Assembly: GCA_951812955.1 (NCBI GenBank)
Contig: OX638340.1
Location: forward strand, 608,001-672,000
DNA: 64,000 nucleotides
From: an uncultured Gemmatimonadota bacterium
Lineage (GTDB): Bacteria > JAAXHH01
Direction of reading: 5' to 3'
This document shows positions 2,694 through 63,570 of this stretch, piece by piece (position 1 is the first letter of the stretch; the number at the start of each line of letters is the position of its first letter). The notes under the pieces were generated by a model. That model had not been told where the DNA came from and ran no database searches. It saw only the letters and a program-made list of their open reading frames with translations. The translations under genes were made by a program, and so were the position numbers.

Positions 2694-2766
2694 ATCGGCA
2701 CGCCGCAGTATAGCATACGTCCTCGCAGGAACATACACGCACATAGATGGTTAGGACGCTTCCGCT

Positions 2767-3642: not shown

Positions 3643-3669
3643 CGTTCCCCCGCACTGCGAGTACTGGAG

Positions 3670-9327: not shown

Positions 9328-9749
9328 CCATTTTCCTTCCGCTTGACGATCGTCAGGACGTTCTTGTCGTTTTCCCGGCGGTAGCTCAGTTCATCCATCA
9401 TGGTCCGAACCAGATAGATGCCGAGACCGCCGACGGGCCGGTCTTCAACCCCAGACTCGATATCCGGTTCCGGGGAGTCGGTAAGCGGGTTGAACGCCGG
9501 GCCTTCGTCCCGCAACTCGATGGTCAACGTTTCGGAATCGGAGTCCAGTACCACTTCGAATTCGTGTTCCGGGTCGTTGGCGTGGCCGTGGGTAACGATG
9601 TTGACGCCCAGTTCCTCAAGGACCAGCTTGACCTGGTACACCATGCCCGGCGGCCATTCTTCCGACTCGCCAAGTTCGTCCACGGCCTCGTAAATCCGTT
9701 CGAGTTGGTCCAGTCTGGTAGGCAGGCGAAGAGAGAGTTTTCTACGCAT
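9324..9749 (-). CDS. RsbW/SpoIIAB-like anti-sigma factor serine protein kinase (HATPase_c_2).
   Basis: 141 aa. GHKL ATPase motifs (EELGVNIVTHG, DEGPAFNP, GGLGIYLVRTMMDEL), typical of partner-switching kinases. Confidence 0.7.
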   Translation of the reverse strand: MRRKLSLRLPTRLDQLERIYEAVDELGESEEWPPGMVYQVKLVLEELGVNIVTHGHANDPEHEFEVVLDSDSETLTIELRDEGPAFNPLTDSPEPDIESGVEDRPVGGLGIYLVRTMMDELSYRRENDKNVLTIVKRKENG

Positions 9750-9757
9750 GGGCGAAC

Positions 9758-11485: not shown

Positions 11486-12277
11486 CTATCCCGAGGCGAG
11501 AATGGGATGCAACGGTCCACCGAACGGCTCGCCCGGTTTCAGTGTCTGGTCGCCTCCTGCGTCCCATCGGCCGTTGTAGTTCACGTATTCGGGAATATAG
11601 ATGATCGCCAGGGCTCTCCTGGGCGAATCGGTACGGTTCGATGTGGCGTAATGGAACGTGCATCCGTGATGAAAGGTGACGCCGCCTGCTTCCATTTCCA
11701 TTATGACGGGTTCAACCTCGTCATCGACGTCCGTACCTTCGATTTCTTTCAGTACGCTCGCACCCTCCGTACTCAAGGGCACGGGCGCCAGCCGGCCGTA
11801 TTGGTGCGAGCCTGGTATGAACTGCATGCAGCCGTTGTCTACAGTGACATCGTCCACGGCGATCCAGGCCGACAGCGCACCCACCTGCTCCATGGGCCAG
11901 TAAGGAGCGTCCTGATGCCAGTTGGTTTCCTTGCTCCGCTCGCCACCAGGCTTGATCAGTCCATGGTCATGGTAGATGACCAGGCGTTTGCACTTCGATA
12001 TCTTACGGGCGATCTCCGCCAGGCGCGCGTCAAAGGAATACTTGCGGATTACTTCGTGGTCCACCCACAGGTTGACCATCTGGTTGAATACGCGGTTGTA
12101 ATCCTCGTCCGTTTCACGCCCGCCGCCCAGTATGCGTTCCCTCTTCTCCGCTACCGTTTTGTCCAGCGCTTCTCTCAGTTCCGTCACTTCATCCTTCGAG
12201 AAGAACCTCGGAATCCGGAGATAACCATTCTCCTGAAAAAACTCAACCTCTTCGGCGCCAATGTGATTTGGATTCAT
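11486..12277 (-). CDS. PhyH-family Fe(II)/2-oxoglutarate-dependent dioxygenase (paralog 1 of 4).
   Basis: HxD facial-triad motif in WHQDAPYW and a distal His in FHHGCTFH. 263 aa. Confidence 0.7.
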   Translation of the reverse strand: MNPNHIGAEEVEFFQENGYLRIPRFFSKDEVTELREALDKTVAEKRERILGGGRETDEDYNRVFNQMVNLWVDHEVIRKYSFDARLAEIARKISKCKRLVIYHDHGLIKPGGERSKETNWHQDAPYWPMEQVGALSAWIAVDDVTVDNGCMQFIPGSHQYGRLAPVPLSTEGASVLKEIEGTDVDDEVEPVIMEMEAGGVTFHHGCTFHYATSNRTDSPRRALAIIYIPEYVNYNGRWDAGGDQTLKPGEPFGGPLHPILASG

Positions 12278-12501: not shown

Positions 12502-13479
12502 ATGCCGCAAGACCGTTATCAAATCGGTGTCCAGGACTATATCGACTACCACCGGGATGGCTACCTGGTTGCCCGGGGACTCGTACCCGACACGGAAGTG
12601 GAGGAAATCCGCCGCCATACCGAGGAACTGATGCATGGCAGGATCATCATCGACGGTGTTGAGCCACCGCCGCCTGGCCTTACTCCCGAGCAGATGGGGC
12701 AGCACTGGCTGCGTATACACATGCTCCACCGGAAGCATGAACTGCATGAACGGTACCTGCTGCAACCCCGGATTCTGGATGTGCTAGAAGCCCTGATCGG
12801 TCCCGATGTGTCGGCGCTCCAGACCATGTTGTTTCTCAAGCCGCCGGGACGTGAGGGCCAGGGTTACCACCAGGACGCCTACTATATCCCCACCTATCCC
12901 GATACGCTGATCGGTTCGTGGCTGGCCGTGGATCCGGCGGATGAAGAGAATGGCTGCATGAAGGTCATACCGGGATCACACCATGAACCAATCTATCCGG
13001 ACGAAAACAAGCTGGGCCAAAACCATACCGACGGATCCATCGAGGATCTTGCCGTGATCGCGGGCGCCAGCGCGACGGATGAATCCGTGAACGGACTGAC
13101 GCCTGTCGCGGCAAAATACGGTGGCCGCGAGGTGGCTGCCTGCATGGCCCCGGGCGACGTCCTGTTCTTCCACAGCCATCTCCTGCACCGGTCGCACGCC
13201 AACCGGACGCAGACGCGTTTCCGCAGGGCCTTTGTAAGCCACTATTGTAACGCGAGGTCATTGGTGCCGTGGAACCACGGCGCCGAATTCGAGGGGACGA
13301 CCGCGAACAATCTCCATATCCTCGCCCGGGGAAATACTCACCTTGACTACGCGTTGCCGAAGTTCGGCACCCCGTGCGACGCGCTCAATCCCAGGGAGAC
13401 GGCCCGGGGTGTCCGCCCGGCGCGCATGATGGGCGGCATGCCTGCTTCGACCGTAAAGGGTGTTATGGTAACACGCTGA
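12502..13479 (+). CDS. PhyH-family Fe(II)/2-oxoglutarate-dependent dioxygenase (paralog 2), divergent from paralog 1.
   Basis: GYHQDAYY (HxD) and FHSHLLHRS (distal His). 325 aa. Confidence 0.7.
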   Translation: MPQDRYQIGVQDYIDYHRDGYLVARGLVPDTEVEEIRRHTEELMHGRIIIDGVEPPPPGLTPEQMGQHWLRIHMLHRKHELHERYLLQPRILDVLEALIGPDVSALQTMLFLKPPGREGQGYHQDAYYIPTYPDTLIGSWLAVDPADEENGCMKVIPGSHHEPIYPDENKLGQNHTDGSIEDLAVIAGASATDESVNGLTPVAAKYGGREVAACMAPGDVLFFHSHLLHRSHANRTQTRFRRAFVSHYCNARSLVPWNHGAEFEGTTANNLHILARGNTHLDYALPKFGTPCDALNPRETARGVRPARMMGGMPASTVKGVMVTR

Positions 13480-19675: not shown

Positions 19676-20758
19676 ATGCCCAAGAAACTGGATGTACGCA
19701 TGATACCCGGCACCCGTTCCGTCGACGCGCTGACTGGCGAAGGCTATTTCCCTGTCATCACCTGTCTGGGTGGCAATGAACTGCTCCTGGCCTACCGGGC
19801 CGGCGCAGCGCACATGGGCCTGGGCGGCCGGCTGGACGTGAGACGGTCGGTCGACGGGGGCCTTAACTGGACTGCGCCTGTGACCGTGGCCGACAGCGAA
19901 AGGGACGACCGTAACCCCGCGCTGGGTCTGGCGCCGGACGGTACGCTTGTACTGGCCTATCACTGGCAGGGGTCCTACGATGACGAAGGCGCATGGAAAC
20001 TGGAATTGGGCAGGGCCGATACTCGGGTCGTATTCTCCGAGGATGGCGGCCATACCTGGACCGGTGACGAGCTCATCGATTTCACTCCGATCAACGGCGC
20101 CTCGCCCTTCGGCAAGATCTTCACGGTAGACGGCGTCATGCACATGCTGATCTATGGCGGTTCGCCCTGCTGCGAGGCCGGATCTGGAACGGTCAGGGTC
20201 GGGCCGGCTTCGACGCCGACGTACATCCTCAGATCCAGGGACAACGGGCGATCCTGGGGGGATCCCACGCTGGTCGCACTGGGACTCAACGAATCGGACG
20301 CAGCCATCCTACCCGACGGCCGCTGGCTCTTCGTCGCCCGTTCCGAGGACCGCGCCGAACAGGCGCTTTATGCCTGCGTTTCTGAGGACGGCGGGTACAC
20401 ATGGCGCAACGTGGGACGGGTCACGGACGCAAAGGAACATCCGCCGGACATCACCCTGATGTCCAACGGATGGCTGCTGCTGCTCTTCGGGCGACGGCAT
20501 CCTCCCTTCGGCGTGGAGGGCCTGATCAGCCGGGACGGCGGGATGACCTGGGATGATCGAAGACTGGTTCTGGACGACTCCCTGCCCGGCGGCGACATCG
20601 GTTATCCCTCCACTGCCCGCCTCGAAGACGGTCGTCTGGTTACCGCCTATTACACCGCGGGAACAGCGGAGAGAAAGTGGGAGATGTTCCGTGCCGCAGA
20701 CGTAGCATGCAAGGTCGTGTCTTACGACGAGTCCAGCCTTATTGATCACTGGAGCTAA
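19676..20758 (+). CDS. BNR/Asp-box repeat sialidase-fold (six-bladed beta-propeller) glycoside hydrolase-like protein with no signal peptide.
   Basis: Five Asp-box SxDxGxTW repeats (SVDGGLNWT, SEDGGHTWT, SRDNGRSWG, SEDGGYTWR, SRDGGMTWD). 360 aa. The N-terminus is not hydrophobic. Confidence 0.65.
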   Translation: MPKKLDVRMIPGTRSVDALTGEGYFPVITCLGGNELLLAYRAGAAHMGLGGRLDVRRSVDGGLNWTAPVTVADSERDDRNPALGLAPDGTLVLAYHWQGSYDDEGAWKLELGRADTRVVFSEDGGHTWTGDELIDFTPINGASPFGKIFTVDGVMHMLIYGGSPCCEAGSGTVRVGPASTPTYILRSRDNGRSWGDPTLVALGLNESDAAILPDGRWLFVARSEDRAEQALYACVSEDGGYTWRNVGRVTDAKEHPPDITLMSNGWLLLLFGRRHPPFGVEGLISRDGGMTWDDRRLVLDDSLPGGDIGYPSTARLEDGRLVTAYYTAGTAERKWEMFRAADVACKVVSYDESSLIDHWS

Positions 20759-20806
20759 ATATCGTAATGCGCTGTCCAAGAGCAGGTTACGTATCAGGAA
20801 CCTTGT

Positions 20807-21937
20807 GTGAGACTCGTTGATTCCGGTGAAATCCGCGACGGCCGTGCCATCCCGGATCACCGCAGGAACTGCGCCTTCACCACCATCAACAGGCTGAACG
20901 ACGGCACGATCCTCGTTTCAGGCCGGTGGGGAACGGCGCGGGATTCGGTGGACGGGCACGCCTGCATCTGGGCCACGTCGGACACCGGCCGTACCTGGCG
21001 CCTTCGATATGACGGAAACGGGAAGGGGACTTGGGACGGAACAGCGGGTGAAGTCAAGGGACTGACGAGTACGGAGCTGTCCCCAGGCACGCTCACGGCG
21101 ACGGCCCTGTGGGTCGACCGTTCCAATCCGGATCTTCCTTTCATCCATCCGGAAACGCAGGGCCTGCTGCCCATGCGCATCATGCACGTCGACTCGGGGG
21201 ACGGTGGCCGCACATGGGGTCCGCCGCGCCGAATGGACACAACGCCCCACCTCGCCGCTTCCCCCTGTTCACACCATATCATCCGGTTGTCCGGCGGTAC
21301 CCTTGTCCAGCCCTACGAACAGTGGAAGGAATACGGGGACACGTCGCCGGGCCGGCCCGCCGCGAGGCTGCGGTTATCACGGGACGGTGGGCGTAGCTGG
21401 CCGGATTTCGTCACCGTGGCCCGGCATCCGGACAACAAGCTCGCCTACTGGGACCAGCGGCTGGCTGTCCATCCCGTTGACGGCCGCCTGGCCGCCACCT
21501 TCTGGACCCACGATTTCGATGCGGGCGTCGACATCGACATCCATATCGCCTACGGGTCGCCGGACGGCCGTGCGTGGACGATCCCCCGCGGCACCGGACT
21601 TCCCGGCCAGCACTGCCAGCCCCTCGCCCTTGGTGGGGATCGCCTGCTGGCCGCTTATCCGCGACGCGGGGATCCTCCCGGCATCGTGCTTTCCATCAGC
21701 GAGGATTTCGGCGAAAGCTGGGACCGGAGCCGGGATCTCCTAGTCTACGACAGCATCGCCGGCAATGAGTCCGGATCCCGCGGCAGCCGTACGCAGTCCG
21801 AATTGTGGGGTGACATGGAGCGCTGGCGCTTCGGACATCCCCGGATGGTGCGATTGCCGGACGACGAGGTGTTCGTCGTCTACTACGCGGGAGATGATGC
21901 CGTCAAGACCGCGCGGTGGGCGAGGGTCCGCGTTTAG
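20807..21937 (+). CDS. Second BNR/Asp-box sialidase-fold protein, tandem to the first, also without a signal peptide. GTG start.
   Basis: Asp boxes SDTGRTW, SGDGGRTWG, SRDGGRSWP, SPDGRAWT, SEDFGESWD. 376 aa. Confidence 0.65.
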   Translation: MRLVDSGEIRDGRAIPDHRRNCAFTTINRLNDGTILVSGRWGTARDSVDGHACIWATSDTGRTWRLRYDGNGKGTWDGTAGEVKGLTSTELSPGTLTATALWVDRSNPDLPFIHPETQGLLPMRIMHVDSGDGGRTWGPPRRMDTTPHLAASPCSHHIIRLSGGTLVQPYEQWKEYGDTSPGRPAARLRLSRDGGRSWPDFVTVARHPDNKLAYWDQRLAVHPVDGRLAATFWTHDFDAGVDIDIHIAYGSPDGRAWTIPRGTGLPGQHCQPLALGGDRLLAAYPRRGDPPGIVLSISEDFGESWDRSRDLLVYDSIAGNESGSRGSRTQSELWGDMERWRFGHPRMVRLPDDEVFVVYYAGDDAVKTARWARVRV

Positions 21938-33433: not shown

Positions 33434-34183
33434 TTGCGGCCCGAGAGGGATGATATGGTGTTGGACTCCTCGCAGAAAAGATTCTTCATCGATTTCGGTT
33501 ACCTCGTCCTGCCCGGTCTCATGCGTGAGGAGGCACCGTGGATCATCGAAGAATTCGAGCGCGTGTTTGCCCGGGCCGGTGTCGTACATGACGGCAGCAA
33601 GCGGTCGAGCCTGGGACCCTTCATCGAACGCAGCGCCCGCCTGTGTTCGATGCTGGACAACCCGAAGGTCAACGGACTGCTCGCAGGCCTCCTGGGAGAG
33701 GACTTTAACTACCTGGGCAGCGGCGGCGAGTTGTACGTCGGCGACGGCATGTGGCATCCGGACTGTCATGGAGACCCGATACGCCAGCTCAAGTGGGCAA
33801 TGTATCTCGATCATCTGACCCAGAATACGGGCGCCCTGAGACTCGTCCCGGGTTCCCACCGGCACGGATGGCAGGGTAATCTCGACACCCAGGCGCTCTG
33901 GGGCATCGGCATGGAGGATGTCCCCTGCGTCGCCCCCGACAATGCGCCGGGCGACGTGATCGTGTTCAACCAGATGACCCTGCACAATGCCCTTGGCGGC
34001 GGTAATCGCCGGCGCATGTTGAACCTATTGGCCTGCTCATCGTGCCGTACGGAAGCCGAACTGGATTTTCTCAAGCGCAGACTTCCGGCTTCCCGCGCGG
34101 AACTGCATTGGGAGATCATGCGCGGTACCGCGACGGCCGAACGCATGCGCCACCTGGAGCAACCATGGACCCTGCTGAGCTGA
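33434..34183 (+). CDS. PhyH-family Fe(II)/2-oxoglutarate dioxygenase (paralog 3). Its 3' end overlaps the IlvD/EDD dehydratase start by 19 nt.
   Basis: WHPDCHGD (HxD), LRLVPGSHRHGW and a distal His (TLHNALGG). The Met at 33455 is an alternative start. Confidence 0.65.
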   Translation: MRPERDDMVLDSSQKRFFIDFGYLVLPGLMREEAPWIIEEFERVFARAGVVHDGSKRSSLGPFIERSARLCSMLDNPKVNGLLAGLLGEDFNYLGSGGELYVGDGMWHPDCHGDPIRQLKWAMYLDHLTQNTGALRLVPGSHRHGWQGNLDTQALWGIGMEDVPCVAPDNAPGDVIVFNQMTLHNALGGGNRRRMLNLLACSSCRTEAELDFLKRRLPASRAELHWEIMRGTATAERMRHLEQPWTLLS

Positions 34184-36768: not shown

Positions 36769-37728
36769 ATGAAGCGCAGGCTGGACCTACTGTCCGTGGG
36801 GGACGGAAATCTTGACGTCTGGATGCGCGTGCCGCGCCATACCGGCGGTCTCACGGGAGGCGTGCGGGAAACCGGCATTGTCGGCGACGCCTGCCGGATC
36901 GGACCTGGGGGAGCGGCCGCGAACGTGGCCATAGGGATGGCGCGGCTCGGCGCGCGCACGGCCTTTGTCGGCGCGATCGGCGACGACACGCCCGGTGCGC
37001 AGTTCGCGGATAACATGCGGGAACACGGCGTTGATGTATCCCATCTCCACGTCATGGCCGGCCAGGCGACTTCCCTGGCCTGCATGTTCGAGACGCCCGA
37101 CCGGGAGTACGCGTTCTACGTGTGCCCGGGTCCCAGGTCCATTCCTTCCCACCGCCTCCCAAGCGGTTTCGTCCGGTCGGCACGTATCCTTTACGTAACC
37201 GGCCATGTGCTTACCGAAGAAGAAGCGACCTGCGATGTCATAATCGACGCGATGGCAACGGCACGCGATGCCGGCGTGACGGTAGCGCTGGACCCTGGAA
37301 AGTACTGGCTCAATCCCTCGCTGGAATCCCGTGTGCATGAGGCTGTGAAGCTGACGGACATCATCCTGCCCAACCGCATGGAAGCGGAGCGACTCACGGG
37401 CCGGCGCACTCCCCGTGACGCCGCCGGCGACCTGCTGGCGGCGGGTGTCGGCATTGTAGCCGTGACGATGGGTGACGGGGGCTGCCTGGCGGCGTGTGCA
37501 GACCGCATGATCGAGCGGTCCGCATACCGAACCGGGATCGTTTCCACGGTAGGCGCCGGCGACGCATTCGCCAGCGGGATGCTCTACAGTTTCCTCGCGA
37601 AGGAGAGCCTGGAGGACATGGCGTCTTTTGCGAATGCCGCGGCGGCCATCAAGATAGGCACACCCGGTGCGGCGGAAGGGATGCCCGGCGCGGATGAGGT
37701 CAGGTCGTTTCTGCGGGTAAACGCTTAA
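36769..37728 (+). CDS. PfkB-family sugar kinase (2-dehydro-3-deoxygluconokinase / ribokinase-like).
   Basis: N-terminal GG motif (IGPGGAAANVA). C-terminal anion-hole motif VSTVGAGDAFASG. Confidence 0.8.
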   Translation: MKRRLDLLSVGDGNLDVWMRVPRHTGGLTGGVRETGIVGDACRIGPGGAAANVAIGMARLGARTAFVGAIGDDTPGAQFADNMREHGVDVSHLHVMAGQATSLACMFETPDREYAFYVCPGPRSIPSHRLPSGFVRSARILYVTGHVLTEEEATCDVIIDAMATARDAGVTVALDPGKYWLNPSLESRVHEAVKLTDIILPNRMEAERLTGRRTPRDAAGDLLAAGVGIVAVTMGDGGCLAACADRMIERSAYRTGIVSTVGAGDAFASGMLYSFLAKESLEDMASFANAAAAIKIGTPGAAEGMPGADEVRSFLRVNA

Positions 37729-37747
37729 CCGGCTTACGTGTTCCGAA

Positions 37748-38845
37748 CTACTTCCTGCTTCCCGCGTAAAAAGGCAGATTCACCACCTCGGCCGGGATGT
37801 GCCTGCCCCTTATAGTCACCGCCAGGACCGTGCCGGGTTCCGCCCGATCAACGGACACGAACCCCGTCCCGATTCCATGTCCCAGCGTGGGCGAAATCGC
37901 GCCGCTGACGACTTGCCCCACCGGGCTTCCGTCGTGAACGATCTCATATCCCTGCCTGGGTATTCCCCTTTCCTGCATCCTCAGCCCGACCAGTTTTCGT
38001 TTCACGCCTGCTCGTTTGAGACGCTTGAGGGCATCCCGTCCGGTAAACGCTGGTTTCTTCAGCCTGACCGTCCATCCCAGACCGGCTTCGAACGGATTGA
38101 TCGATTCGTCGATCTCGTGTCCGTACAGCGCGAGTCCGGCTTCCAGTCGAAGGGTATCTCTTGCCCCCAGGCCGCACGGCTGCAATCCTGCCGAAGCACC
38201 GGAATCCATCAGGAGGTCCCATAGCGCGGCGGCATGCTCGGCCGGATACCAGATTTCGAAACCGTCCTCGCCCGTGTATCCGGTCCGAAACACCCTGGCT
38301 TCAATTCCCCCTATGCGGGTTACAACGAATTCCTGAAACCTTAGCGCGTCCAATCCGGCCTCCGTCAGCGGATCGAGTATTTCCTCGCTGCGGGGTCCCT
38401 GCAACGCGATGAGCATACTCTCCTCGCTCAGATCGCGTATTTCGACGTTGTACGCGGAGACGGACCGGCGAAACCAGGCAAGGTCCTTTTCCCTGTTGCC
38501 CGCGTTGGGAATGACCAGCAGACGGTCCGGCATCCGGTAAACCAGGAAATCATCGATTACGCCGCCGTCGTCAGCGCAGGCCAGGGTATACTGTGACCGA
38601 AAGGGCTTGAGCCGTTCGACGTCGTTTACCGTAATGCGATTCACGAAGTCCACGGCGTCCGGCCCGCATATCTCGACGCGGCCCATGTGGGAAACGTCGA
38701 ACAGGCCGGCCCGGGTGCGAACCGCGTGATGTTCAGTCAGAATCCCCTCGTACTGAACCGGCATCTCCCAGCCGCTGAACGGCACCAGTTTCGCACCCAG
38801 GTCCATGTGGCGCCCATACAGCGCGGTTCTGCGTAGTTCCGACAT
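37748..38845 (-). CDS. gcvT: Glycine cleavage system T protein (aminomethyltransferase). No gcvH or gcvP is adjacent.
   Basis: GcvT blocks GWEMPVQYEGILTEHHAVRTRAGLFDVSHMGRVEI and FRTGYTGEDGFEIW. 365 aa. Confidence 0.85.
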   Translation of the reverse strand: MSELRRTALYGRHMDLGAKLVPFSGWEMPVQYEGILTEHHAVRTRAGLFDVSHMGRVEICGPDAVDFVNRITVNDVERLKPFRSQYTLACADDGGVIDDFLVYRMPDRLLVIPNAGNREKDLAWFRRSVSAYNVEIRDLSEESMLIALQGPRSEEILDPLTEAGLDALRFQEFVVTRIGGIEARVFRTGYTGEDGFEIWYPAEHAAALWDLLMDSGASAGLQPCGLGARDTLRLEAGLALYGHEIDESINPFEAGLGWTVRLKKPAFTGRDALKRLKRAGVKRKLVGLRMQERGIPRQGYEIVHDGSPVGQVVSGAISPTLGHGIGTGFVSVDRAEPGTVLAVTIRGRHIPAEVVNLPFYAGSRK

Positions 38846-38897
38846 GAGATGCTCCCGGCGTCTGAGATGCTCCCGGCGATTGAGATGCTCCCGGCGT
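38844..38897. repeat. Perfect 18-bp tandem repeat x3 (TGAGATGCTCCCGGCG + 2 nt). It directly abuts, and includes, the gcvT ribosome-binding site and start codon.
   Basis: Plus strand: tgagatgctcccggcgtc tgagatgctcccggcgat tgagatgctcccggcgtt. On the gcvT mRNA this gives three copies of CGCCGGGAGCAUCUCA, the last immediately followed by the AUG. Confidence 0.9.
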
Positions 38898-39053
38898 TAA
38901 TACACAACGTTCACCCCTCGCATTTAACGCACGGTCCTTTGACGGTGTCAATACAAAAACGAGATTCGTGATGCGTTTCCGACTGATTGGGACAGACGGA
39001 TATCGCAGGTCAACGAACACGCGTCATCTATCATCAGAAGGAATAACCCGATC

Positions 39054-40841
39054 ATGATAAGAAAACACCATTTTGCCGTCACTGCACTATGCCTGTGTCT
39101 CACCGGAAAAGCCGCGGGTTCGGATGTCGTTATATCGGAGGTCCTGGCCGATCCTCATACAGAATCAAAAGGCGAGTTTGTCGAACTCTACAACGCGGGA
39201 GACGAACCGGTTGATCTCGACGGATGGCCCCTCGGTGATTCAAGGGATGTGAACGATACGATCATGGACTTCACCGGCCCACATGACATCGGCCTCGCAG
39301 GTACCGTACTGGCGCCGGGTGCATACGCGCTCGTCGTGGATCCTGATTACGAAGGAGCATACAACGTCCGGGTCGGCGTGGAAGGCGATCCCGCGAGCCT
39401 CCTTATGCTGACGGTCAAGGGCGACCGTACCCTTGGCAATGGGCTCGGCAACAGCCAGGACCTGGTCTTCATAAAGAAAGACGATATCACGATCGACCAG
39501 TTCGCATGGACCGAATCGGCGGGCGGTAACGGCATCTCCTGGGAGCGGACGCGATTGGACTTGCCCGTGGATGCAGCCAATCTCTTGTCGTCCGAACATC
39601 CCGATGGTTCGACTCCGGGGTTCAGAAACAGCACGTCGAACGATCCGCCTGCCGCACCGGAGCCGGAGGAACCCGGGGAACCGATCGTTCCAGAAGAACC
39701 GCATGAACCTGGCGGACCGGAGGACCCCGCCGAACCGACGGAGCCGGAAACGCCCACCGGGCCTGTTGATCCCGCCGAACCGGACGAGCCTGTCGAGCCC
39801 GGGGAGCCCGACCAGCCTGCTGAACCGACGGAACCCGGGGTGCCCGGGGATCCGGACGAGCCTGTCGAGCCCGGTGAGCCCGACGAACCGAACGAGCCTG
39901 TCGAGCCCGACGAGCCTGCTGAACCGCAGGAGCCCATGGACCCCGAAAAAACCGACGGGCCGACGGAGCCGGAAACGCCCACCGGGCCCGTTGATCCGTC
40001 GGAACCGATGCCTCCTCAGAACGCCGACCGGTCCTTGGAAAACGTGTTTATCAATGAAATCATGTTCAACCCGGGTCCGAACCGAACAGAATGGATTGAA
40101 TTACACAACAGGGGAAGGACCGAGATTGATCTTGCCGGCAGTATGCTGAGGCTGGATCACGTTGACCGGACGCGGCTCATTTCCTCGGATCGCCTCGTGA
40201 TCGAAGGCCAGGGGTTTCTCGTCATTGCGCACGACGCGGTCCTGTTCCATGAGACGTATCCCGGATTCGCAGGAATCGCGGTGGAAGCGGTGGGCGGTTG
40301 GGAGCGACTCCGAAACAGCGGTGCAAGGTTGTTGCTCCTGGATGCAGGTGGCAAAACCATACACGATGCGGAGTACGACGAGGAATCAAATCCCGATCCA
40401 GGCCGTTCCGTGGAACTGGTAAACCCGGACTTCGAGCCACAGATCTGGGGGCCTTCTGCCGATCCCGAAGGGAGCACTCCGGGCCGGAGGAACGCGCTGA
40501 ATGTAACTCATATCCCCGACGGAGTTTCGCTCCACGTCGCCAACAATCCATTCTCCCCGGATGGCGACAATTATGAGGACATTTGCCTGGTGACTGTTGA
40601 ACTGCCCGCATCCCACGGCATTCTGCATGCCATGGTTTTCGATATCAGCGGTCGATTTCTCAAAACGCTCATTAATCAGACTGCCGTAGCCAGCCGGCAT
40701 GTATTCTCCTGGGACGGAACGGATCAACACGGACGCAGCCTGCCCGTCGGTCCGTACATTCTATACGTGGAACAGATGCTGCCCACACTCGACAGGCTGA
40801 CGGCTTCCAAGCACGTGGTTGTGATCGCATCTTCGCCATGA
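39054..40841 (+). CDS. Secreted multidomain protein: signal peptide, lamin-tail domain (LTD), Pro/Glu-rich (EPxEP) repetitive linker, second LTD, and a C-terminal FlgD-Ig-like / T9SS-type (Por) sorting domain.
   Basis: Signal peptide MIRKHHFAVTALCLCLTGKAAG. LTD motifs VVISEVLADP...EFVELYN and VFINEIMFNPG...EWIELHN. A linker of about 110 aa built of PEP/EPT repeats, with a duplicated segment PTEPETPTGPVDP. C-terminus NPFSPDGDNYEDICLVTVELP...VFDISGRFLKTLIN...WDGTDQHGRSLPVGPYILYV. Confidence 0.7.
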   Translation: MIRKHHFAVTALCLCLTGKAAGSDVVISEVLADPHTESKGEFVELYNAGDEPVDLDGWPLGDSRDVNDTIMDFTGPHDIGLAGTVLAPGAYALVVDPDYEGAYNVRVGVEGDPASLLMLTVKGDRTLGNGLGNSQDLVFIKKDDITIDQFAWTESAGGNGISWERTRLDLPVDAANLLSSEHPDGSTPGFRNSTSNDPPAAPEPEEPGEPIVPEEPHEPGGPEDPAEPTEPETPTGPVDPAEPDEPVEPGEPDQPAEPTEPGVPGDPDEPVEPGEPDEPNEPVEPDEPAEPQEPMDPEKTDGPTEPETPTGPVDPSEPMPPQNADRSLENVFINEIMFNPGPNRTEWIELHNRGRTEIDLAGSMLRLDHVDRTRLISSDRLVIEGQGFLVIAHDAVLFHETYPGFAGIAVEAVGGWERLRNSGARLLLLDAGGKTIHDAEYDEESNPDPGRSVELVNPDFEPQIWGPSADPEGSTPGRRNALNVTHIPDGVSLHVANNPFSPDGDNYEDICLVTVELPASHGILHAMVFDISGRFLKTLINQTAVASRHVFSWDGTDQHGRSLPVGPYILYVEQMLPTLDRLTASKHVVVIASSP

Positions 40842-43979: not shown

Positions 43980-44948
43980 TTACTTTCGATCCTTGAGACG
44001 GGTCCAGCCTCTACCCGGGTTATATGGCTTCGCTTCGTGAAAACGGTCTCGTAATTCCTTGAAAGCGTCGGGCGTTCTGACCTCCCGTTCGGGATGACTC
44101 GAATCCCTGATTACGAAGTCCGCCTCGCTCGGATAGCAGGCCATGGTTACCGGGTCCCGTTCCGGAGTATAGGATTCCGGATCCTCCTCCGCGTTATTCG
44201 GCGCATCCATGGACTGATATCTAAGGTCCACGCTCCAGCGTACGATATCGGACCGGTTCACGAAGGAGGCATGAGGCGTCAGATTAGTCATGAACAGGAC
44301 GTCGCCCAGTTTCATCTGCAAAGGTACGGGATCGCGCCCGGGCAATTCGTCGGCCGGGATTTCCAGGTAGCCGCCGTGCCCACCGGTGTAATGTTTGAAT
44401 ACACCATTTTCATGGGCGCGCGGAATCACGTACAGACAGCCGTTTTCTACCGTCGTATCAACCAGCGGGATCCAACAGGTCACGATAAGGTACCGGTCGC
44501 AGTGGGGCAGGAAATAACCCGAGTCCTGGTGCCAGGGTACTTCCGTTCTCGTGTATTCCGGGATCTTCGGACGAATTCTGTACGCGGAAGCGCCCACGAT
44601 GTCCGGCCCGACCAGGTCGTTAACACAATCTACCAGGTTGTCGTTCCGCAACAGACCGAGCATCTCTTCCCCGCTGAATCCGCCCCCTCCCCGTCCCATG
44701 ATCATCTTCATGATCTCCTGCCCGGCTTCTTCGGATTCTTCGTATACACGCGCGAGACGGGTCTCGAATCCTGATGCTTCGTACAGATCGGACAACTTTC
44801 CTTCGCGGTGCAGACGGTGCGCTCCGTCTGCCACTATTTCGCCCAACGCGGCAATCAACGGCCGCAGTTCATCCCGCTCCAGCAGTCCTTCTTTGACCAG
44901 ATATCCCTGCGTGTTGAAATGTGCGATTTCCGTTTGTGCAAGTCCCAT
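43980..44948 (-). CDS. PhyH-family Fe(II)/2-oxoglutarate dioxygenase (paralog 4).
   Basis: WHQDSGYF (HxD), distal LTPHASF. 322 aa. Confidence 0.7.
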   Translation of the reverse strand: MGLAQTEIAHFNTQGYLVKEGLLERDELRPLIAALGEIVADGAHRLHREGKLSDLYEASGFETRLARVYEESEEAGQEIMKMIMGRGGGGFSGEEMLGLLRNDNLVDCVNDLVGPDIVGASAYRIRPKIPEYTRTEVPWHQDSGYFLPHCDRYLIVTCWIPLVDTTVENGCLYVIPRAHENGVFKHYTGGHGGYLEIPADELPGRDPVPLQMKLGDVLFMTNLTPHASFVNRSDIVRWSVDLRYQSMDAPNNAEEDPESYTPERDPVTMACYPSEADFVIRDSSHPEREVRTPDAFKELRDRFHEAKPYNPGRGWTRLKDRK

Positions 44949-61254: not shown

Positions 61255-63570
61255 TCAGCCGGTGGCCAAATCCGCGATTCGTTGCAGGGCCACCACCGCC
61301 AGCAGTCTCTCCTCGGCGTGCAGGGCCCTGTTCCGGCCTTCGGATTCCAGGCCCGACAGTACCCTGTACGCTAGTTCCACCCCTTCCAAACCCGCCGAAG
61401 AATCTCCCGCAGGCGCCGCATCCACGGCAGAAACGTCCGGTAAATCGGTACGCACCGTGCGAAGTACTTCCCTTGCGATTTCGACGAGTTGCTTCAGCAT
61501 CTCACCGGTTTGTTGCCGTTCGAAAGCGGCCATCGCCCGGTCGACTGCGGCCGTGTACCGATCCCTCGCATCTCGCTCGACATGTGACCAGCCGCCCAGT
61601 TGCCGGCGGACGGACCGGAATAACCGTACCGTCGACCGGTCCTGGTTCATCTCACCGGCCTGAAGCAACTGATACAGGAGATCCGGGGCGCCAAGGAGAT
61701 GCCCCGCCGACATGATCAGTACACCGCGTTCGAGACTGGTTTCGCTGGTCCTGATGAGGTCCTGAAGCCGGCTCAGTATCCCGGTATTGCCCATTCTGGC
61801 CAGCGTTTCCAGGGTAGTCTGGACGATCGCGGGGTCCCGTTCGTGTTCGAGCAGGGCTTCCAGCGCCGTCTCAACGCGCCGGTCCCCGATTCGATCGAGG
61901 GCGATTACGGCGCTTCGCCGGATGCCGGGGCGTTCATCGTGAAGCAGGGTCACCAGGATGTTGAGGCTGAGCGACGACGGCACCGAGCCCAGGGCCTCCA
62001 CGGCCTCCTCGGCGATGTCAGACGATGGGTTTCCCACGCATTCGAGCAGTGGGTTCACGGCCTCTTCCGCGCCGATCCTGCTCAGGGACTGCACTGCTTC
62101 CCGCCGCACGTTGCGATCGCTGTCATCCAGCAACGCGATCAACTCGTCCACAGCCAGGTGACTTCCGGTTTCGCCCAGTTCACGGGCCGCCCGGGCCCGG
62201 ACCGTTGGATTGCTGGATTTTCCCATGCGCACCAGGTGCCAGAGGGTCGCAATGGGATTCCCCTTGCGCACCCGGTTGATCACGTCACGGGGGGAGACCT
62301 GCGAATCGGAGACCAGGCGGGCCAGCAGGCCCATGTAGGATATTCGAAGCACCCCGTTGGCGAGGAAGAGGTATTGCAGTCCCGCGAAGGTGTAGCCGAA
62401 GAAGGATACGGCAGGTATGGAGGTACACAGTTCGGCGGCTATTCCACCGATTATGGCGCCGCACGCCGCGCATCCTCTCGATACCGCGGAGTAGCATCCC
62501 AGGAATGCGGAGCGGTTGGCCGCCGGGGCCGTTTTGACGATGAGATTGAACCGGGCCGTACCCCATCCCGCGCTCATGCTGCCGCCCCAGATCTGCACCA
62601 GCGGCACCATGACCCAGTAGTTGTCCAGCGTTACGAATCCCCATCCCAGCGGGAAAATGGCCAGTCCCGTGGCGGTAAGCGACATGACCGGCTTGTAACC
62701 GTACTTGTCCGCCAGGTAGCCCCAGAATGGATTCATGATGATCGTCGCGATAGTTTGTATTGCCGAGAAAACCGCGATCTGGGCGTAGGATACTTCGAGC
62801 GTCCGCAGCATGTAGACCGTGAAGAATGGCGCGGCGATCTGGGCGATGACGAGCCGCCCTGAAACCAGGAACATCAATTTGCGAAAAGGAGCGTGCCGGA
62901 AGGGGAGACGAAGCAGCTGGTTCGGCGGGACGCGCTCGCCCCTGCTCTTTCGCGGTTCGGGAATGCACGACCAGGCCCAGATCCCGAATCCTGAAAAGAC
63001 CACGGCCACGATGAATATGATACTGAAACCCTCCTGCGAGTCGCCCGCGGCGTATGTACTCAGGAAGAATCCCGCGCACACCGACGTGATCAGGCCGGCG
63101 GACGCCGTCAGGCTGCGCTGGCGCGCGACGAAGCGGCCGCGGATCTCGTCGGGAATCAGGTCGGTCAGCCAGGACTGACGCGCCGGAGAAACCAGGGACA
63201 TGGCGGCTTTCGATAAAGCGATGCAGGCTATGAGCGCCAGTAGTTGGTTCCCTTCGAAGAAGAGAAAGGGAATGAAGGCGATGGGCAGCCAGAGGGATGT
63301 GCTGACGCCATTGGCAAGCAGGCACAGCGTTTTGCGCCGGGGCAGGCGTTCGATAAGTAGCGGAGAGAAAGCCTGTAACAACTGACCGATGGAAATGGAG
63401 GCGGAAATAAAGCCGATCATGGCGGTGGATGCACCGAGATGCAGGGCGTAACCGGTGGTGTAAACGCCGGTGGTTATCGCGGAATGGACCGACTCGAGCA
63501 TGCCGTTCACGTTCCACATGCGCATTCCGCGCGCCGTCTGCAACCGGGTCAGTTTTCTCTCTTGTTGCAC
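61255..63570 (-). CDS. Fusion protein: an N-terminal MFS transporter (about 12 TM helices, about 430 aa) plus a C-terminal HEAT/PBS-lyase-type alpha-solenoid domain of about 330 aa.
   Basis: MFS-like loop motif (GYLADKYGYKP). Repeated HEAT units NPTVRARAARELGETGSHLAVDELIALLDDSDRNVRREAVQSLSRIG, ...DIAEEAVEALG..., ...HDERPGIRRSAVIALDRIGD. Confidence 0.65.
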   Translation of the reverse strand: MQQERKLTRLQTARGMRMWNVNGMLESVHSAITTGVYTTGYALHLGASTAMIGFISASISIGQLLQAFSPLLIERLPRRKTLCLLANGVSTSLWLPIAFIPFLFFEGNQLLALIACIALSKAAMSLVSPARQSWLTDLIPDEIRGRFVARQRSLTASAGLITSVCAGFFLSTYAAGDSQEGFSIIFIVAVVFSGFGIWAWSCIPEPRKSRGERVPPNQLLRLPFRHAPFRKLMFLVSGRLVIAQIAAPFFTVYMLRTLEVSYAQIAVFSAIQTIATIIMNPFWGYLADKYGYKPVMSLTATGLAIFPLGWGFVTLDNYWVMVPLVQIWGGSMSAGWGTARFNLIVKTAPAANRSAFLGCYSAVSRGCAACGAIIGGIAAELCTSIPAVSFFGYTFAGLQYLFLANGVLRISYMGLLARLVSDSQVSPRDVINRVRKGNPIATLWHLVRMGKSSNPTVRARAARELGETGSHLAVDELIALLDDSDRNVRREAVQSLSRIGAEEAVNPLLECVGNPSSDIAEEAVEALGSVPSSLSLNILVTLLHDERPGIRRSAVIALDRIGDRRVETALEALLEHERDPAIVQTTLETLARMGNTGILSRLQDLIRTSETSLERGVLIMSAGHLLGAPDLLYQLLQAGEMNQDRSTVRLFRSVRRQLGGWSHVERDARDRYTAAVDRAMAAFERQQTGEMLKQLVEIAREVLRTVRTDLPDVSAVDAAPAGDSSAGLEGVELAYRVLSGLESEGRNRALHAEERLLAVVALQRIADLATG

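What the first reader, a model, noticed from the sequence alone, without database searches (positions are those of the whole stretch)
39054..40841. Secreted double lamin-tail-domain protein with a PE-rich repetitive linker and a T9SS/FlgD-Ig-type C-terminal domain
Reading from the N-terminus: signal peptide, LTD, then a linker of about 110 aa of EPxEP/PTEP repeats (including an exactly duplicated nucleotide block encoding PTEPETPTGPVDP), a second LTD, and a roughly 100-aa C-terminal domain that matches the Por-secretion / FlgD-Ig consensus (NPFSP...V.L...DISGR.L.TL......WDG.D..G...P.G.Y.LYV). LTDs are immunoglobulin-like folds shared with eukaryotic lamins and occur in bacterial surface or biofilm-matrix proteins. 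The architecture suggests a cell-surface or secreted adhesin exported by a type IX-like pathway. This also hints that the organism lies outside the Proteobacteria, or has acquired T9SS-type cargo.
Basis: partly seen in the sequence, partly recalled or inferred. Interest (0 to 1): 0.5.

Follow-up and report, generated by a model that had tools for sequence, protein, structure and literature searches.

The report
Secreted double lamin-tail protein, proline stalk
This gene in a Gemmatimonadota bacterium encodes an exported, very acidic protein with two lamin-tail-type domains held apart by a rigid proline-every-third-residue spacer and ending in a domain related to type IX secretion sorting signals; it is probably a cell-surface protein, and it belongs to an uncharacterised family built from known parts.

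Summary
ORF 39054-40841 (+) encodes 595 aa in this order: Sec-type signal peptide, LTD, Pro/Glu-rich linker, LTD, and a 112-aa C-terminal beta-sandwich.

- **LTDs:** both pass Pfam's cut-off on their own.
- **C-terminal domain:** it only just passes FlgD_ig (27.7 bits against a cut-off of 27). It fails every T9SS sorting-domain cut-off by itself.
- **Family-level support:** 34 of 36 aligned family C-termini hit CHU_C (type B), and 30 of 36 hit the C-terminal domain of the sortase PorU. The domain ends the protein in all 100+ relatives.
- **Link to PorV:** in 30 of 120 PorV-family loci from many phyla, a gene ending in this domain lies next to the PorV-like gene.
- **Caveat:** the same domain type also forms internal tandem arrays in giant proteins, so homology alone does not prove a sorting role.
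- **T9SS genes:** none lies in the 64-kb window. The rest of the genome could not be searched.

Two new points emerged. The linker is an unbroken (x-E/D-P)x41 repeat whose length varies from 34 to at least 157 aa among close relatives. It also replaces a folded CARDB-like domain that orthologues in other phyla carry at that position.

Verdict: a plausible T9SS-type surface protein of unknown ligand, and a new member of a known kind.

The parts
39038..39042 (+). Shine-Dalgarno-like AAGGA, 11 nt before the ATG
   Evidence: Read from the sequence. Function is inferred only.
39054..39119 (+). Signal peptide (aa 1-22), Sec/signal peptidase I type, no lipobox
   Evidence: Basic n-region, hydrophobic core and an AAG/S cleavage site. 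The N-terminal pattern is conserved in the clade orthologues shown. By inspection; no predictor was run.
39120..39635 (+). LTD1 (aa 23-194), lamin-tail-type Ig fold with insertions; the most conserved part of the family
   Evidence: - Pfam PF00932: 55.9 bits against a cut-off of 34.3.
- AF2 model: pLDDT 93.
- Best PDB fold matches are the lamin B1, B2 and A/C tails.
- About 50 invariant residues across orthologues from several lineages, including the D/N-rich loop LGDxxDxNDxxxD.
39636..40043 (+). Acidic proline-rich linker (aa 195-330). Its core, aa 199-321 (nt 39648-40016), is (x-[E/D]-P)x41.
   Evidence: - Pro fills 39 of 41 third positions with no phase break, and E/D fills 71% of second positions.
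- Net charge is -42.
- No Pfam hit.
- TRF finds periods of 9, 18, 27 and 36 nt.
- Length varies between orthologues: 34-157 aa by the anchor-based measure and 44-188 aa by a Pro-density window.
39735..39773 (+). First copy of the block encoding PTEPETPTGPVDP
   Evidence: 37/39 nt identical to the second copy, with 29 nt exact.
39960..39998 (+). Second copy of the block encoding PTEPETPTGPVDP
40044..40502 (+). LTD2 (aa 331-483)
   Evidence: Pfam PF00932 scores 39.3 bits against a cut-off of 34.3. It shares only the start motif (INEI..P...EW/FVEL.N.G..IDL.G) and the end motif (GSTPG.RN) with LTD1.
40503..40838 (+). C-terminal beta-sandwich domain (aa 484-595), FlgD_ig / T9SS-CTD superfamily, ending the protein
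   Evidence: - FlgD_ig: 27.7-29.3 bits against a cut-off of 27. CHU_C and TIGR04131 fall below their cut-offs.
- AF2 model: pLDDT 93.5.
- TM-score 0.71 to the PorU CTD and 0.72 to the C5a-peptidase Fn3 domain.
- Terminal in all relatives.

Best explanation
The gene encodes a Sec-exported, non-enzymatic, highly acidic envelope protein of a Gemmatimonadota bacterium.

**Proposed mechanism**
1. The signal peptide takes the protein into the periplasm.
2. The C-terminal Ig-like domain, a member of the FlgD_ig / T9SS-CTD superfamily, is recognised by a type IX-like sorting route: a PorV/PorQ-type outer-membrane partner, perhaps with a sortase.
3. The protein ends up on or outside the outer membrane, held by its C-terminus.
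4. LTD2 then sits near the membrane.
5. The (x-E/D-P)n segment forms an extended, charge-repelling, polyproline-II-like stalk. It would be about 38 nm if fully extended (123 residues x 0.31 nm).
6. LTD1, the most conserved module, is held out as the binding head for an unknown, probably non-nucleic-acid ligand.

**Shown**
- The domain order.
- The homologies.
- The terminal position of the C-terminal domain.
- The periodic linker and its length variation.

**Inferred**
- Export across the outer membrane.
- Anchoring by the C-terminus.
- The stalk geometry.
- Ligand binding by LTD1.
For: **Architecture and export**
- The architecture and signal peptide are confirmed.
- The organism has an outer membrane with LPS: lptA/B/C, an lpxL-like gene, kdsA and kdsB are in the window.

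**Relation of the C-terminal domain to T9SS sorting domains**
- Of 36 diverse family C-termini, 34 hit Pfam CHU_C (best E 8e-11) and 35 hit FlgD_ig.
- On NCBIfam, 30 of 36 hit the CTD region of the sortase PorU, 18 hit PorZ, 16 hit TIGR04131 and 10 hit TIGR04183.
- A profile search of the PDB finds the PorU CTD (6za2, residues 1080-1155) at E 0.003.
- The AF2 model (pLDDT 93.5) superposes on the PorU CTD with TM 0.71.
- The domain lies within 0-22 aa of the C-terminus in all 100+ homologues.

**Genomic link to PorV**
- In 120 PorV-family loci from many phyla, 40 ORFs carry a single copy of this domain, always within 24 aa of their end.
- 30 of these 40 are directly adjacent to the PorV-like gene, and 23 of those are upstream on the same strand. 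If placement within each 8-kb locus were random, about one third would be adjacent (a rough estimate); on that assumption the binomial p is about 7e-8.

**Bridges to real T9SS systems**
- A Rhodothermus marinus protein whose CTD passes TIGR04183 (39 bits against 23) also hits FlgD models, and it matches a family CTD.
- KSB1 and an unclassified MAG have PorV, PorU and T9SS cargo.
- Soil Gemmatimonadota have a PorV/PorQ-family gene (133 bits against a cut-off of 90) directly after a gene for a 1126-1221 aa protein that ends in a T9SS-like CTD.

**Literature**
- Type B CTDs are sometimes labelled as the FlgD_ig superfamily (PMC11611037).
- T9SS 'may be present' in Gemmatimonadetes (PMC11285876).

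**Stalk**
- Proline at every third residue gives extended, compaction-resistant stalks in Aap and SasG (PMC10367597).
- The streptococcal beta-protein XPZ region is a polyproline II helix exposed on the surface (Areschoug 2002, as cited in PMC8013792).
- A linker that varies 34-157 aa (44-188 by the measure) among close relatives fits an unconstrained extracellular spacer better than a periplasm-spanning one.

**Context**
- Zixibacterial orthologues lie next to genes for YadA-head/MAT-like fibres and a VWA protein.
Against: - This protein's own C-terminal domain passes no T9SS model cut-off: CHU_C 14-19 bits against 27, TIGR04131 16 against 35, and no Por_Secre_tail hit.
- The domain type is not signal-specific. 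The profile finds 147,384 representative proteins, and the 150 best are giant proteins with 4-34 mostly internal tandem copies.
- The fold is a generic Ig/Fn3 sandwich. C5a-peptidase Fn3 matches as well as the PorU CTD does.
- No T9SS gene lies in the 64-kb window or next to the orthologues in six other loci, and there is no porP/sprF neighbour as is typical for type B cargo.
- SprA and GldK/L/M/N were not tested in any Gemmatimonadota genome.
- PorV-family genes also occur in phyla not known to have a T9SS, so they are weak markers.
- A systematic survey found T9SS only in Bacteroidetes (PMC4793230).
- The role of bacterial LTDs is unknown (PMC6085458).
Confidence: 0.55

Rival explanations
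1. The protein is periplasmic or attached to the inner face of the outer membrane. The C-terminal domain is just another structural or binding Ig module, not a sorting signal. After Sec export the protein stays in the periplasm.
For: - The same domain is used as an internal tandem repeat in thousands of proteins.
- It is below the T9SS cut-offs in this protein.
- No T9SS machinery has been shown in this genome.
- Bacterial LTDs have been described in 'secreted or periplasmic proteins' (PMC6085458, citing Mans 2004).
Against: - The domain is single and strictly terminal in every family member.
- Single terminal copies cluster next to PorV-family genes.
- A stalk that could reach roughly 10 to more than 50 nm, with freely varying length, fits poorly in a periplasm of fixed width. 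This is an inference.
Confidence: 0.22
2. The protein binds extracellular DNA or is an accessory to nucleases. On this view the LTDs bind DNA, as is assumed for the LTD-bearing extracellular nucleases ExeM and Xds.
For: - LTDs occur in extracellular nucleases (PMC6085458, PMC8289736).
- There is a weak NCBIfam match of aa 20-73 to the LTD region of ExeM (E 0.003).
Against: - No nuclease or OB-fold domain is present.
- The mature protein has pI 4.1 and net charge -79. LTD1 carries -21 and LTD2 -11, which would repel DNA unless cations bridge the two.
- In ExeM the LTD is dispensable for extracellular DNA degradation, and its role is unresolved (PMC6085458).
- No nuclease or nucleoside-uptake genes lie nearby.
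Confidence: 0.05
3. The protein is a eukaryote-like effector. The lamin-tail fold would be displayed to an animal host (for example a sponge) to interfere with host proteins.
For: - The fold matches nuclear lamin tails best.
- The variant with the proline stalk is restricted to one Gemmatimonadota clade.
- From memory only, and not verified with the tools: some MAGs of this clade carry locus tags of the kind used in sponge-metagenome submissions (F4X08_, F4Z81_).
Against: - Orthologues with the same LTD1 signature occur in Zixibacteria and relatives from sediments and other free-living settings, so the family is not host-specific.
- The host association of this organism was not established with the tools.
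- Fold matches to lamins are weak (E 4e-3, TM 0.4-0.6).
Confidence: 0.05
4. The protein is a flagellar FlgD-like hook-capping protein.
For: The best Pfam, NCBIfam and PDB sequence matches of the C-terminal domain are to the Ig-like domain of FlgD.
Against: - Only the Ig-like insert is matched (for example positions 119-174 of a 221-position model).
- No FlgD N-terminal or Tudor-like part is present.
- Scores are 19-24 bits against equivalog cut-offs of 230-383.
- The protein has a signal peptide, and no flagellar genes are nearby.
Confidence: 0.01

Closest known systems
T9SS cargo with type B C-terminal domains (Pfam CHU_C PF13585 / TIGR04131; e.g. Flavobacterium johnsoniae SprB, Cytophaga hutchinsonii CHU_3220)
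   Same: - Sec signal peptide plus a terminal domain of about 100 aa.
- That domain begins with the PNxF(S/T)P(D/N)GDGxND-like motif and contains the WDG...G.Y motif.
- 34 of 36 family C-termini hit CHU_C.
- The literature notes that type B CTDs get labelled FlgD_ig (PMC11611037).
   Different: - This protein is below the CHU_C and TIGR04131 cut-offs.
- No porP/sprF-like gene is adjacent.
- The host is Gemmatimonadota, where a T9SS has not been demonstrated.
C-terminal domains of the T9SS attachment-complex proteins PorU and PorZ
   Same: - They are the most frequent T9SS-related matches for the family C-termini: 30 of 36 for PorU and 18 of 36 for PorZ.
- PDB 6za2, the PorU CTD, matches at E 0.003 with TM 0.71.
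- The C-terminus of Rhodothermus marinus PorZ shares the WDGRD..G..VPSGVY motif.
   Different: Only the terminal domain is shared. There is no C25-like sortase body and no beta-propeller.
FlgD hook-cap protein, Ig-like domain (PF13860; PDB 3osv, 7eh9, 3c12)
   Same: It is the best sequence match for the C-terminal domain (E 5e-8 by profile), and the only Pfam model passed for that domain.
   Different: The rest of FlgD is absent, the protein has a signal peptide, and there is no flagellar context.
LTD-bearing extracellular nucleases (Shewanella ExeM, Vibrio Xds) and other bacterial LTD proteins
   Same: An N-terminal signal peptide is followed directly by an LTD, and the protein is secreted or envelope-associated.
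   Different: There is no catalytic or OB-fold domain, there are two LTDs, and the protein is strongly acidic.
Proline-every-third-residue stalks of Gram-positive surface proteins (Aap/SasG Pro/Gly-rich region; group B streptococcal beta-protein XPZ region)
   Same: Strict three-residue proline periodicity, low complexity, variable length, and a position between a binding head and the anchor (PMC10367597; Areschoug 2002 as cited in PMC8013792).
   Different: - The stalk lies between two folded domains, not next to an LPXTG anchor.
- The second position of each triplet is almost always acidic.
- The organism is a diderm.
- No biophysical data exist for this sequence.
Nuclear lamin tail Ig fold (PDB 3jt0, 2lll, 1ifr)
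   Same: Pfam LTD membership, and the best structural matches for LTD1.
   Different: LTD1 is about 60 aa longer because of insertions. The structural similarity is weak (TM 0.4-0.6), and the proteins share no functional context.

Membership tests
Pfam LTD (PF00932) | HMM score at or above the gathering score (34.3 bits) | tested here: met
   The whole protein scores 95.1 bits. LTD1 alone scores 55.9 and LTD2 alone 39.3.
Pfam LTD (PF00932) | Lamin-tail-type Ig beta-sandwich fold | tested here: met
   The AF2 model of LTD1 has pLDDT 93. The top 12 PDB matches are all lamin tails, but they are weak (E 4e-3, TM 0.33-0.63).
Pfam FlgD_ig (PF13860) | HMM score at or above the gathering score (27 bits) | tested here: met
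   27.7 bits for the whole protein and 29.3 bits for the domain alone, so the pass is marginal. 35 of 36 family C-termini hit at E<0.01.
FlgD flagellar hook-cap protein | Full-length equivalog score, FlgD N-terminal region, flagellar gene context | tested here: not met
   Scores are 19-24 bits against cut-offs of 230-383, and only the Ig insert aligns. No flagellar genes are nearby.
T9SS type B sorting domain (PF13585 CHU_C / TIGR04131) | HMM score at or above the cut-off (27 / 35 bits) | tested here: not met
   CHU_C scores 14.4 bits (18.8 for the domain alone) and TIGR04131 scores 11.6-16.3 bits. At the family level, 34 of 36 hit CHU_C and 16 of 36 hit TIGR04131 at E<0.01.
T9SS type B sorting domain (PF13585 CHU_C / TIGR04131) | Cognate porP/sprF-like gene next to the cargo gene (usual for type B cargo; from established knowledge) | tested here: not met
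   No such gene flanks the window gene or the orthologues in L001, L004, L005, L007, L133 or L134.
T9SS type A sorting domain (TIGR04183 / PF18962) | HMM score at or above the cut-off (23 bits) | tested here: not met
   No hit for this protein. Of the family C-termini, 10 of 36 (NCBIfam) and 3 of 36 (Pfam) hit at E<0.01.
T9SS cargo in general | N-terminal Sec signal peptide | tested here: met
   By inspection and hydropathy, and the pattern is conserved in the clade orthologues shown. No dedicated predictor was available.
T9SS cargo in general | Sorting domain located at the extreme C-terminus as a compact beta-sandwich | tested here: met
   The gap to the C-terminus is 0-22 aa in more than 100 homologues. 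The AF2 beta-sandwich has pLDDT 93.5 and TM 0.71 to the PorU CTD.
T9SS cargo in general | Domain type used specifically as a terminal signal | tested here: not met
   The best 150 of 147,384 profile hits are proteins with 4-34 tandem copies, mostly internal.
T9SS cargo in general | T9SS machinery (SprA/Sov, PorV, PorU, GldK/L/M/N) encoded in the same genome | not testable with these tools
- At phylum level, only a PorV/PorQ-family gene next to a gene for a CTD-bearing protein was found, in soil Gemmatimonadota.
T9SS cargo in general | CTD-dependent secretion shown by experiment | not testable with these tools
   This needs proteomics or genetics.

The most novel reading that the evidence does not exclude
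This protein family would be a conserved single-copy cargo of a type IX-like PorV/CTD sorting route that reaches well beyond Bacteroidota, into Gemmatimonadota, Zixibacteria and KSB1. PorV-plus-CTD gene pairs are even seen in Poribacteria, Nitrospira and Acidobacteriota.

In one marine Gemmatimonadota clade, the folded CARDB spacer has been replaced by a rigid (x-E-P)n polyproline rod whose length changes quickly between strains. That would make it a surface stalk of adjustable length that holds out a lamin-tail-like head, possibly towards a eukaryotic host.
Probability: 0.12. Interest if true: 0.55.

Novelty: new member of a known kind. Interest (0 to 1): 0.3.

Why it matters
- If the sorting inference is right, the gene is a convenient marker cargo for asking whether Gemmatimonadota and neighbouring candidate phyla run a type IX-like export route. 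The literature leaves this open: TXSScan found none outside Bacteroidetes, while a 2024 review says it 'may be present'.
- The replacement of a folded Ig spacer by a strictly periodic, length-variable proline rod within one orthologous family is a clean natural example that either solution can serve as a spacer.
- By itself the protein is an uncharacterised envelope protein made of known modules. Databases already hold many orthologues annotated as 'lamin tail domain-containing protein'.

Tried and rejected
1. **Finding T9SS genes in this lineage.** I took the Rhodothermus marinus PorV sequence from the supplement of PMC7323717 and searched the protein collection with it. All 120 listed hits were Rhodothermales or Bacteroidota, so the search said nothing about Gemmatimonadota.
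2. **DNA motif scan for PorV-family genes.** I scanned the GTDB genomes for the motif R..GMG.A...[D/N]...WNPAG.
   - It was very specific for the family: 119 PorV-family ORF hits across the 120 loci.
   - It also showed that the family occurs in many phyla not known to have a T9SS, so a PorV-family gene alone is a weak marker.
3. **Searching with that Gemmatimonadota PorV/PorQ protein**. This found many soil Gemmatimonadota homologues, but none on the 3.8-3.9 Mb contigs that carry the LTD orthologues. The window's own lineage therefore stays untested.
4. **Literature searches** for T9SS in Gemmatimonadetes/Gemmatimonadota or in sponge symbionts gave only one passing statement. Kulkarni et al. 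2017 is not held.
5. **Fold search of the C-terminal domain.** It cannot separate a T9SS CTD from any Fn3/Ig domain.
6. **Plasmid collection search.** It gave no T9SS core genes. It did give a useful Rhodothermus bridge protein and a Parabacteroides LTD protein with a related C-terminus.
7. **Promoter and terminator scan** around the gene: nothing beyond chance.
8. **Lipoprotein reading of the N-terminus:** rejected, because neither Cys is preceded by G, A or S.
9. **Exact-sequence look-up of the window protein:** not on record.
Full report
**1. The observation**

The ORF at 39054-40841 (+) starts with ATG and encodes 595 aa. An AAGGA motif lies 11 nt upstream of the start.

The N-terminus, MIRKHH-FAVTALCLCLTG-KAAG/SD, has a basic n-region, a 12-residue hydrophobic core and a small-residue cleavage site. 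Neither Cys is preceded by G, A or S, so it does not read as a lipoprotein. This is by inspection; no signal-peptide predictor was available. The same N-terminal pattern appears in the orthologues of the clade.

Pfam finds LTD (PF00932) at E 4e-27 in two stretches. Scanned separately, aa 23-194 scores 55.9 bits and aa 331-483 scores 39.3 bits, both above the gathering score of 34.3. The two LTDs are distant paralogues. They share only the opening motif (I-N/S-E-V/I..P...E-F/W-V/I-E-L.N.G..V/I-D-L.G) and the closing motif GSTPG.RN.

Between them, aa 195-330 is 32% Pro and 32% Glu+Asp and matches no Pfam family.

The peptide PTEPETPTGPVDP occurs twice (aa 228-240 and 303-315). The two DNA copies are 37/39 identical, with 29 nt exact. 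'Exactly duplicated' is therefore true for the protein and slightly overstated for the DNA.

The last 112 aa hit FlgD_ig at 27.7 bits against a gathering score of 27. They hit CHU_C at 14.4 bits against 27 and TIGR04131 at E 0.23. Por_Secre_tail gives no hit.

The description is therefore correct at the stated coordinates and far beyond chance.

**2. Organism and gene family**

The search found 265 homologues at E <= 1e-5.

- **Closest group.** The closest 45 clusters are 51-96% identical. Where a source names them, they are Gemmatimonadetes/Gemmatimonadota MAG proteins, for example MYD25764.1. Several sit on 3.8-3.9 Mb contigs.
- **Synteny.** The order PfkB, gcvT (opposite strand), LTD gene, prs, dctP is kept at 88% and at 51% identity.
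- **The window.** Its other genes are housekeeping and metabolic: the suf operon, rpoN-hpf-hprK-ptsH-ptsI, lptB/A/C, an lpxL-like gene, kdsA/B and uvrD. None is a T9SS gene. The LPS genes show that the organism is a diderm.
- **More distant orthologues.** Proteins of the same length at 31-46% identity over the full length occur in Zixibacteria and in unnamed MAGs. Longer relatives (about 830 aa) occur in KSB1 and Marinimicrobia.
- **Context elsewhere.** In other lineages the gene also stands alone among housekeeping genes. It looks like a conserved single-copy core gene, not an island-borne adhesin.
- **Zixibacteria.** There it follows genes with sub-threshold YadA-head / mosaic-adhesive-trimer matches and a VWA protein.

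**3.

The core of the linker (aa 199-321) is an unbroken tripeptide repeat, (x-[E/D]-P)x41. Proline fills 39 of 41 third positions with no phase shift, and Glu or Asp fills 71% of second positions. TRF sees the matching 9, 18, 27 and 36 nt periods.

Every orthologue of the Gemmatimonadota clade has the same periodicity (median in-phase proline 0.94). Linker length, however, ranges from 34 to 157 aa by anchor-based measurement, and from 44 to 188 aa by a proline-density window. This holds even among proteins more than 88% identical in the folded parts.

Orthologues outside this clade have no such linker. The same position holds a folded segment of about 115 aa with the CARDB signature. P0053 hits CARDB at E 0.004, and several relatives have precomputed PF07705 hits.

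The ancestral architecture was therefore LTD-CARDB-LTD-CTD, and the proline rod is a lineage-specific replacement.

A polyproline II helix has three residues per turn, so a proline at every third residue fits an extended rod with the acidic residues along one face. If fully extended, 123 residues would span about 38 nm (inference). Two experimentally studied analogues exist:

- the Pro/Gly-rich stalks of staphylococcal Aap and SasG, which have proline at every third position and stay extended and resist compaction (PMC10367597);
- the XPZ region of the group B streptococcal beta protein (Areschoug 2002, as cited in PMC8013792).

**4. The C-terminal domain**

I aligned 36 diverse family C-termini (A1). 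The consensus is PNPFSPDGDGxED...LP...v.irIfD..GR.VRtL....G....WDG.D..G..l..G.Yi..lEA.....K..VVLA..L.

*Evidence for a sorting role*

- The domain lies within 0-22 aa of the C-terminus in all 100+ homologues.
- Scanned one by one against Pfam, 35 of 36 hit FlgD_ig, 34 of 36 hit CHU_C (best E 8e-11) and 3 of 36 hit Por_Secre_tail.
- On NCBIfam, 30 of 36 hit the CTD region of the sortase PorU, 18 hit PorZ, 16 hit TIGR04131 and 10 hit TIGR04183.
- A profile search of the PDB gives FlgD first (E 5e-8), then the PorU CTD (6za2, residues 1080-1155, E 0.003). The RgpB CTD follows at a non-significant level.
- The AF2 model is confident (pLDDT 93.5).
- A review notes that type B CTDs are sometimes labelled as the FlgD_ig superfamily (PMC11611037).

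*Evidence against*

- The fold is a generic beta-sandwich. C5a-peptidase Fn3 domains (TM 0.72) match as well as the PorU CTD (0.71) and better than FlgD (about 0.58).
- The A1 profile finds 147,384 representative proteins at E <= 1e-3. The 150 best are giant proteins with 4-34 tandem copies, mostly internal. The domain type is a general-purpose module, and homology alone does not make it a signal.

**5. Is there a type IX system to use it?**

The literature is split. TXSScan found T9SS only in Bacteroidetes (PMC4793230). [quoted passage not shown]

*PorV as a probe.* I took the Rhodothermus marinus PorV sequence from the supplement of PMC7323717. A protein search with it returned only Rhodothermales and Bacteroidota.

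*DNA motif scan.* I then scanned the GTDB genomes for a PorV-family motif.

They contain 119 PorV-family ORF hits.
- They come from many phyla. These include Poribacteria, Nitrospira, Acidobacteriota and Elusimicrobia, so the PorV family by itself is a weak T9SS marker.
- Some loci are clearly T9SS. One has PorU (598 bits against a cut-off of 420) next to PorV. A KSB1 locus has PorV next to a T9SS-dependent M6-like cargo with a type A CTD.

*Association with the C-terminal domain.* Across these 8-kb loci, 40 ORFs in 35 loci carry one A1-type domain, always within 24 aa of their end. Of these, 30 abut the PorV-like gene, and 23 of those lie upstream on the same strand. If placement within a locus were random, about one third would be adjacent (a rough estimate of mine); on that assumption the binomial p is about 7e-8.

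This is the strongest evidence found here that a single terminal copy of this domain works together with PorV-type barrels.

*A Rhodothermus bridge.* A Rhodothermus plasmid protein has a CTD that passes TIGR04183 (39 bits against 23). It also hits FlgD models, and it matches a family CTD by tblastn.

*Gemmatimonadota.* One soil MAG, and many homologues found from it, have a PorV/PorQ-family gene (132-133 bits against a cut-off of 90). It lies directly after a gene for a 1126-1221 aa protein with a sub-threshold T9SS-like CTD and no other family match. A TonB-dependent-receptor-like gene and a GWxTD-domain gene flank the pair. None of these hits lies on the contigs that carry the LTD orthologues. 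SprA and GldK/L/M/N were not tested.

**6. The LTDs**

LTD1 is the most conserved part of the family, with about 50 invariant positions across ten orthologues from Gemmatimonadota, Zixibacteria and unnamed MAGs. These include the Asp/Asn-rich loop LGDxxDxNDxxxD (aa 60-72), which looks like a cation-binding loop (inference only).

Its AF2 model (pLDDT 93) matches nuclear lamin tails best, but weakly (E 4e-3, TM 0.33-0.63).

The mature protein has pI 4.1 and net charge -79. LTD1 carries -21 and LTD2 -11. This argues against direct DNA binding of the kind assumed for the LTD-bearing nucleases. In ExeM, the LTD is in any case dispensable for extracellular DNA degradation, and its role is unresolved (PMC6085458).

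No ligand can be named.

**7. Conclusion**

Best reading, with confidence about 0.55:

1. The protein is exported by the Sec pathway.
2. It is sorted to the outer surface or the medium by a type IX-like route that recognises the terminal domain.
3. LTD2 sits near the membrane.
4. The acidic polyproline rod acts as a spacer of variable length.
5. LTD1 is the conserved binding head.

The main rival is a periplasmic protein whose last domain is simply another Ig module (about 0.22).

The protein is a member of LTD (twice) and marginally of FlgD_ig. It is not FlgD. It cannot be filed as a type A or type B T9SS sorting-domain protein on its own scores, although it probably works like one.

Novelty is low to moderate. 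Many orthologues already sit in databases as 'lamin tail domain-containing protein' or 'hypothetical protein'. The periodic rod replacing a CARDB domain, and the link between this domain and PorV-family genes outside Bacteroidota, are the parts worth remembering.

Noticed in passing
window 39648-40016: The linker is a strict (x-[E/D]-P)x41 tripeptide repeat: proline fills 39 of 41 third positions with no phase break. Its length varies from 34 to at least 157 aa among close orthologues, and it replaces a folded CARDB-like domain present in orthologues from other phyla.
   Followed up: yes
L011-L130 (genome-contig loci): PorV/PorQ-family outer-membrane genes turn up in many phyla not known for T9SS, including Poribacteria, Nitrospira, Acidobacteriota, Elusimicrobia, WOR-3 and Hydrogenedentota. 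In 30 of 120 loci, the neighbouring gene ends in a single FlgD_ig/T9SS-like C-terminal domain.
   Followed up: partly
L131 3064-12918; L132 3095-12954; L053 3-3729: Soil Gemmatimonadota share a conserved gene order: a TonB-dependent-receptor-like gene, a gene for a 1126-1221 aa protein with only a weak T9SS-like CTD match (possibly a very divergent PorU-like protein), a PorV/PorQ-family gene, and a GWxTD-domain gene.
   Followed up: partly
L005 1518-7822; L007 1-7850: In Zixibacteria, the LTD orthologue lies directly downstream of three or four large same-strand genes. These have sub-threshold YadA-head / mosaic-adhesive-trimer matches, plus a VWA + GATase1-like protein, which suggests a surface-fibre gene cluster.
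   Followed up: partly
window 11486-12277 (-), 12502-13479 (+), 33434-34183 (+), 43980-44948 (-): There are four phytanoyl-CoA dioxygenase (PhyH) family paralogues within 64 kb, which is an unusual density. Their substrates are unknown.
   Followed up: no
window 61255-63570 (-): A 771-aa protein fuses an MFS transporter domain with HEAT/PBS-lyase repeats.
   Followed up: no
window 2677-4965 (-): A 762-aa ORF with no family match lies antisense to the P-type heavy-metal ATPase gene (3670-5898 +). It is most likely a spurious ORF of the kind common in GC-rich DNA.
   Followed up: partly
window 5960-10915 (-): A signalling cluster: a TorS-like sensor histidine kinase, a Peripla_BP_6 binding protein, and a response regulator fused to a PP2C (SpoIIE) phosphatase. 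A second Peripla_BP_6 gene lies at 894-2180 (+).
   Followed up: no
window 19676-21937 (+): Two adjacent BNR/sialidase-like repeat proteins lie next to sugar-acid metabolism genes (a mandelate racemase-like gene, a UxuA-like gene and an HpcH aldolase).
   Followed up: no
L133 6659-9704; window 36769-40841: A PfkB-family kinase gene lies immediately upstream of the LTD orthologue in an unrelated MAG, and two genes upstream in the window and its relatives. This may be remnant synteny or coincidence.
   Followed up: no
L010 9868-12240 (Parabacteroides distasonis NZ_OY725749.1); L009 12868-15258 (Rhodothermus marinus plasmid pRHOM17201): - A 790-aa Parabacteroides 'lamin tail domain-containing protein' ends in a related C-terminal domain, yet hits no NCBIfam model.
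- The Rhodothermus plasmid carries a PorZ-like paralogue (184 bits against a cut-off of 260) with a type A CTD.
- The Parabacteroides 'plasmid 4' looks like chromosomal DNA.
   Followed up: partly
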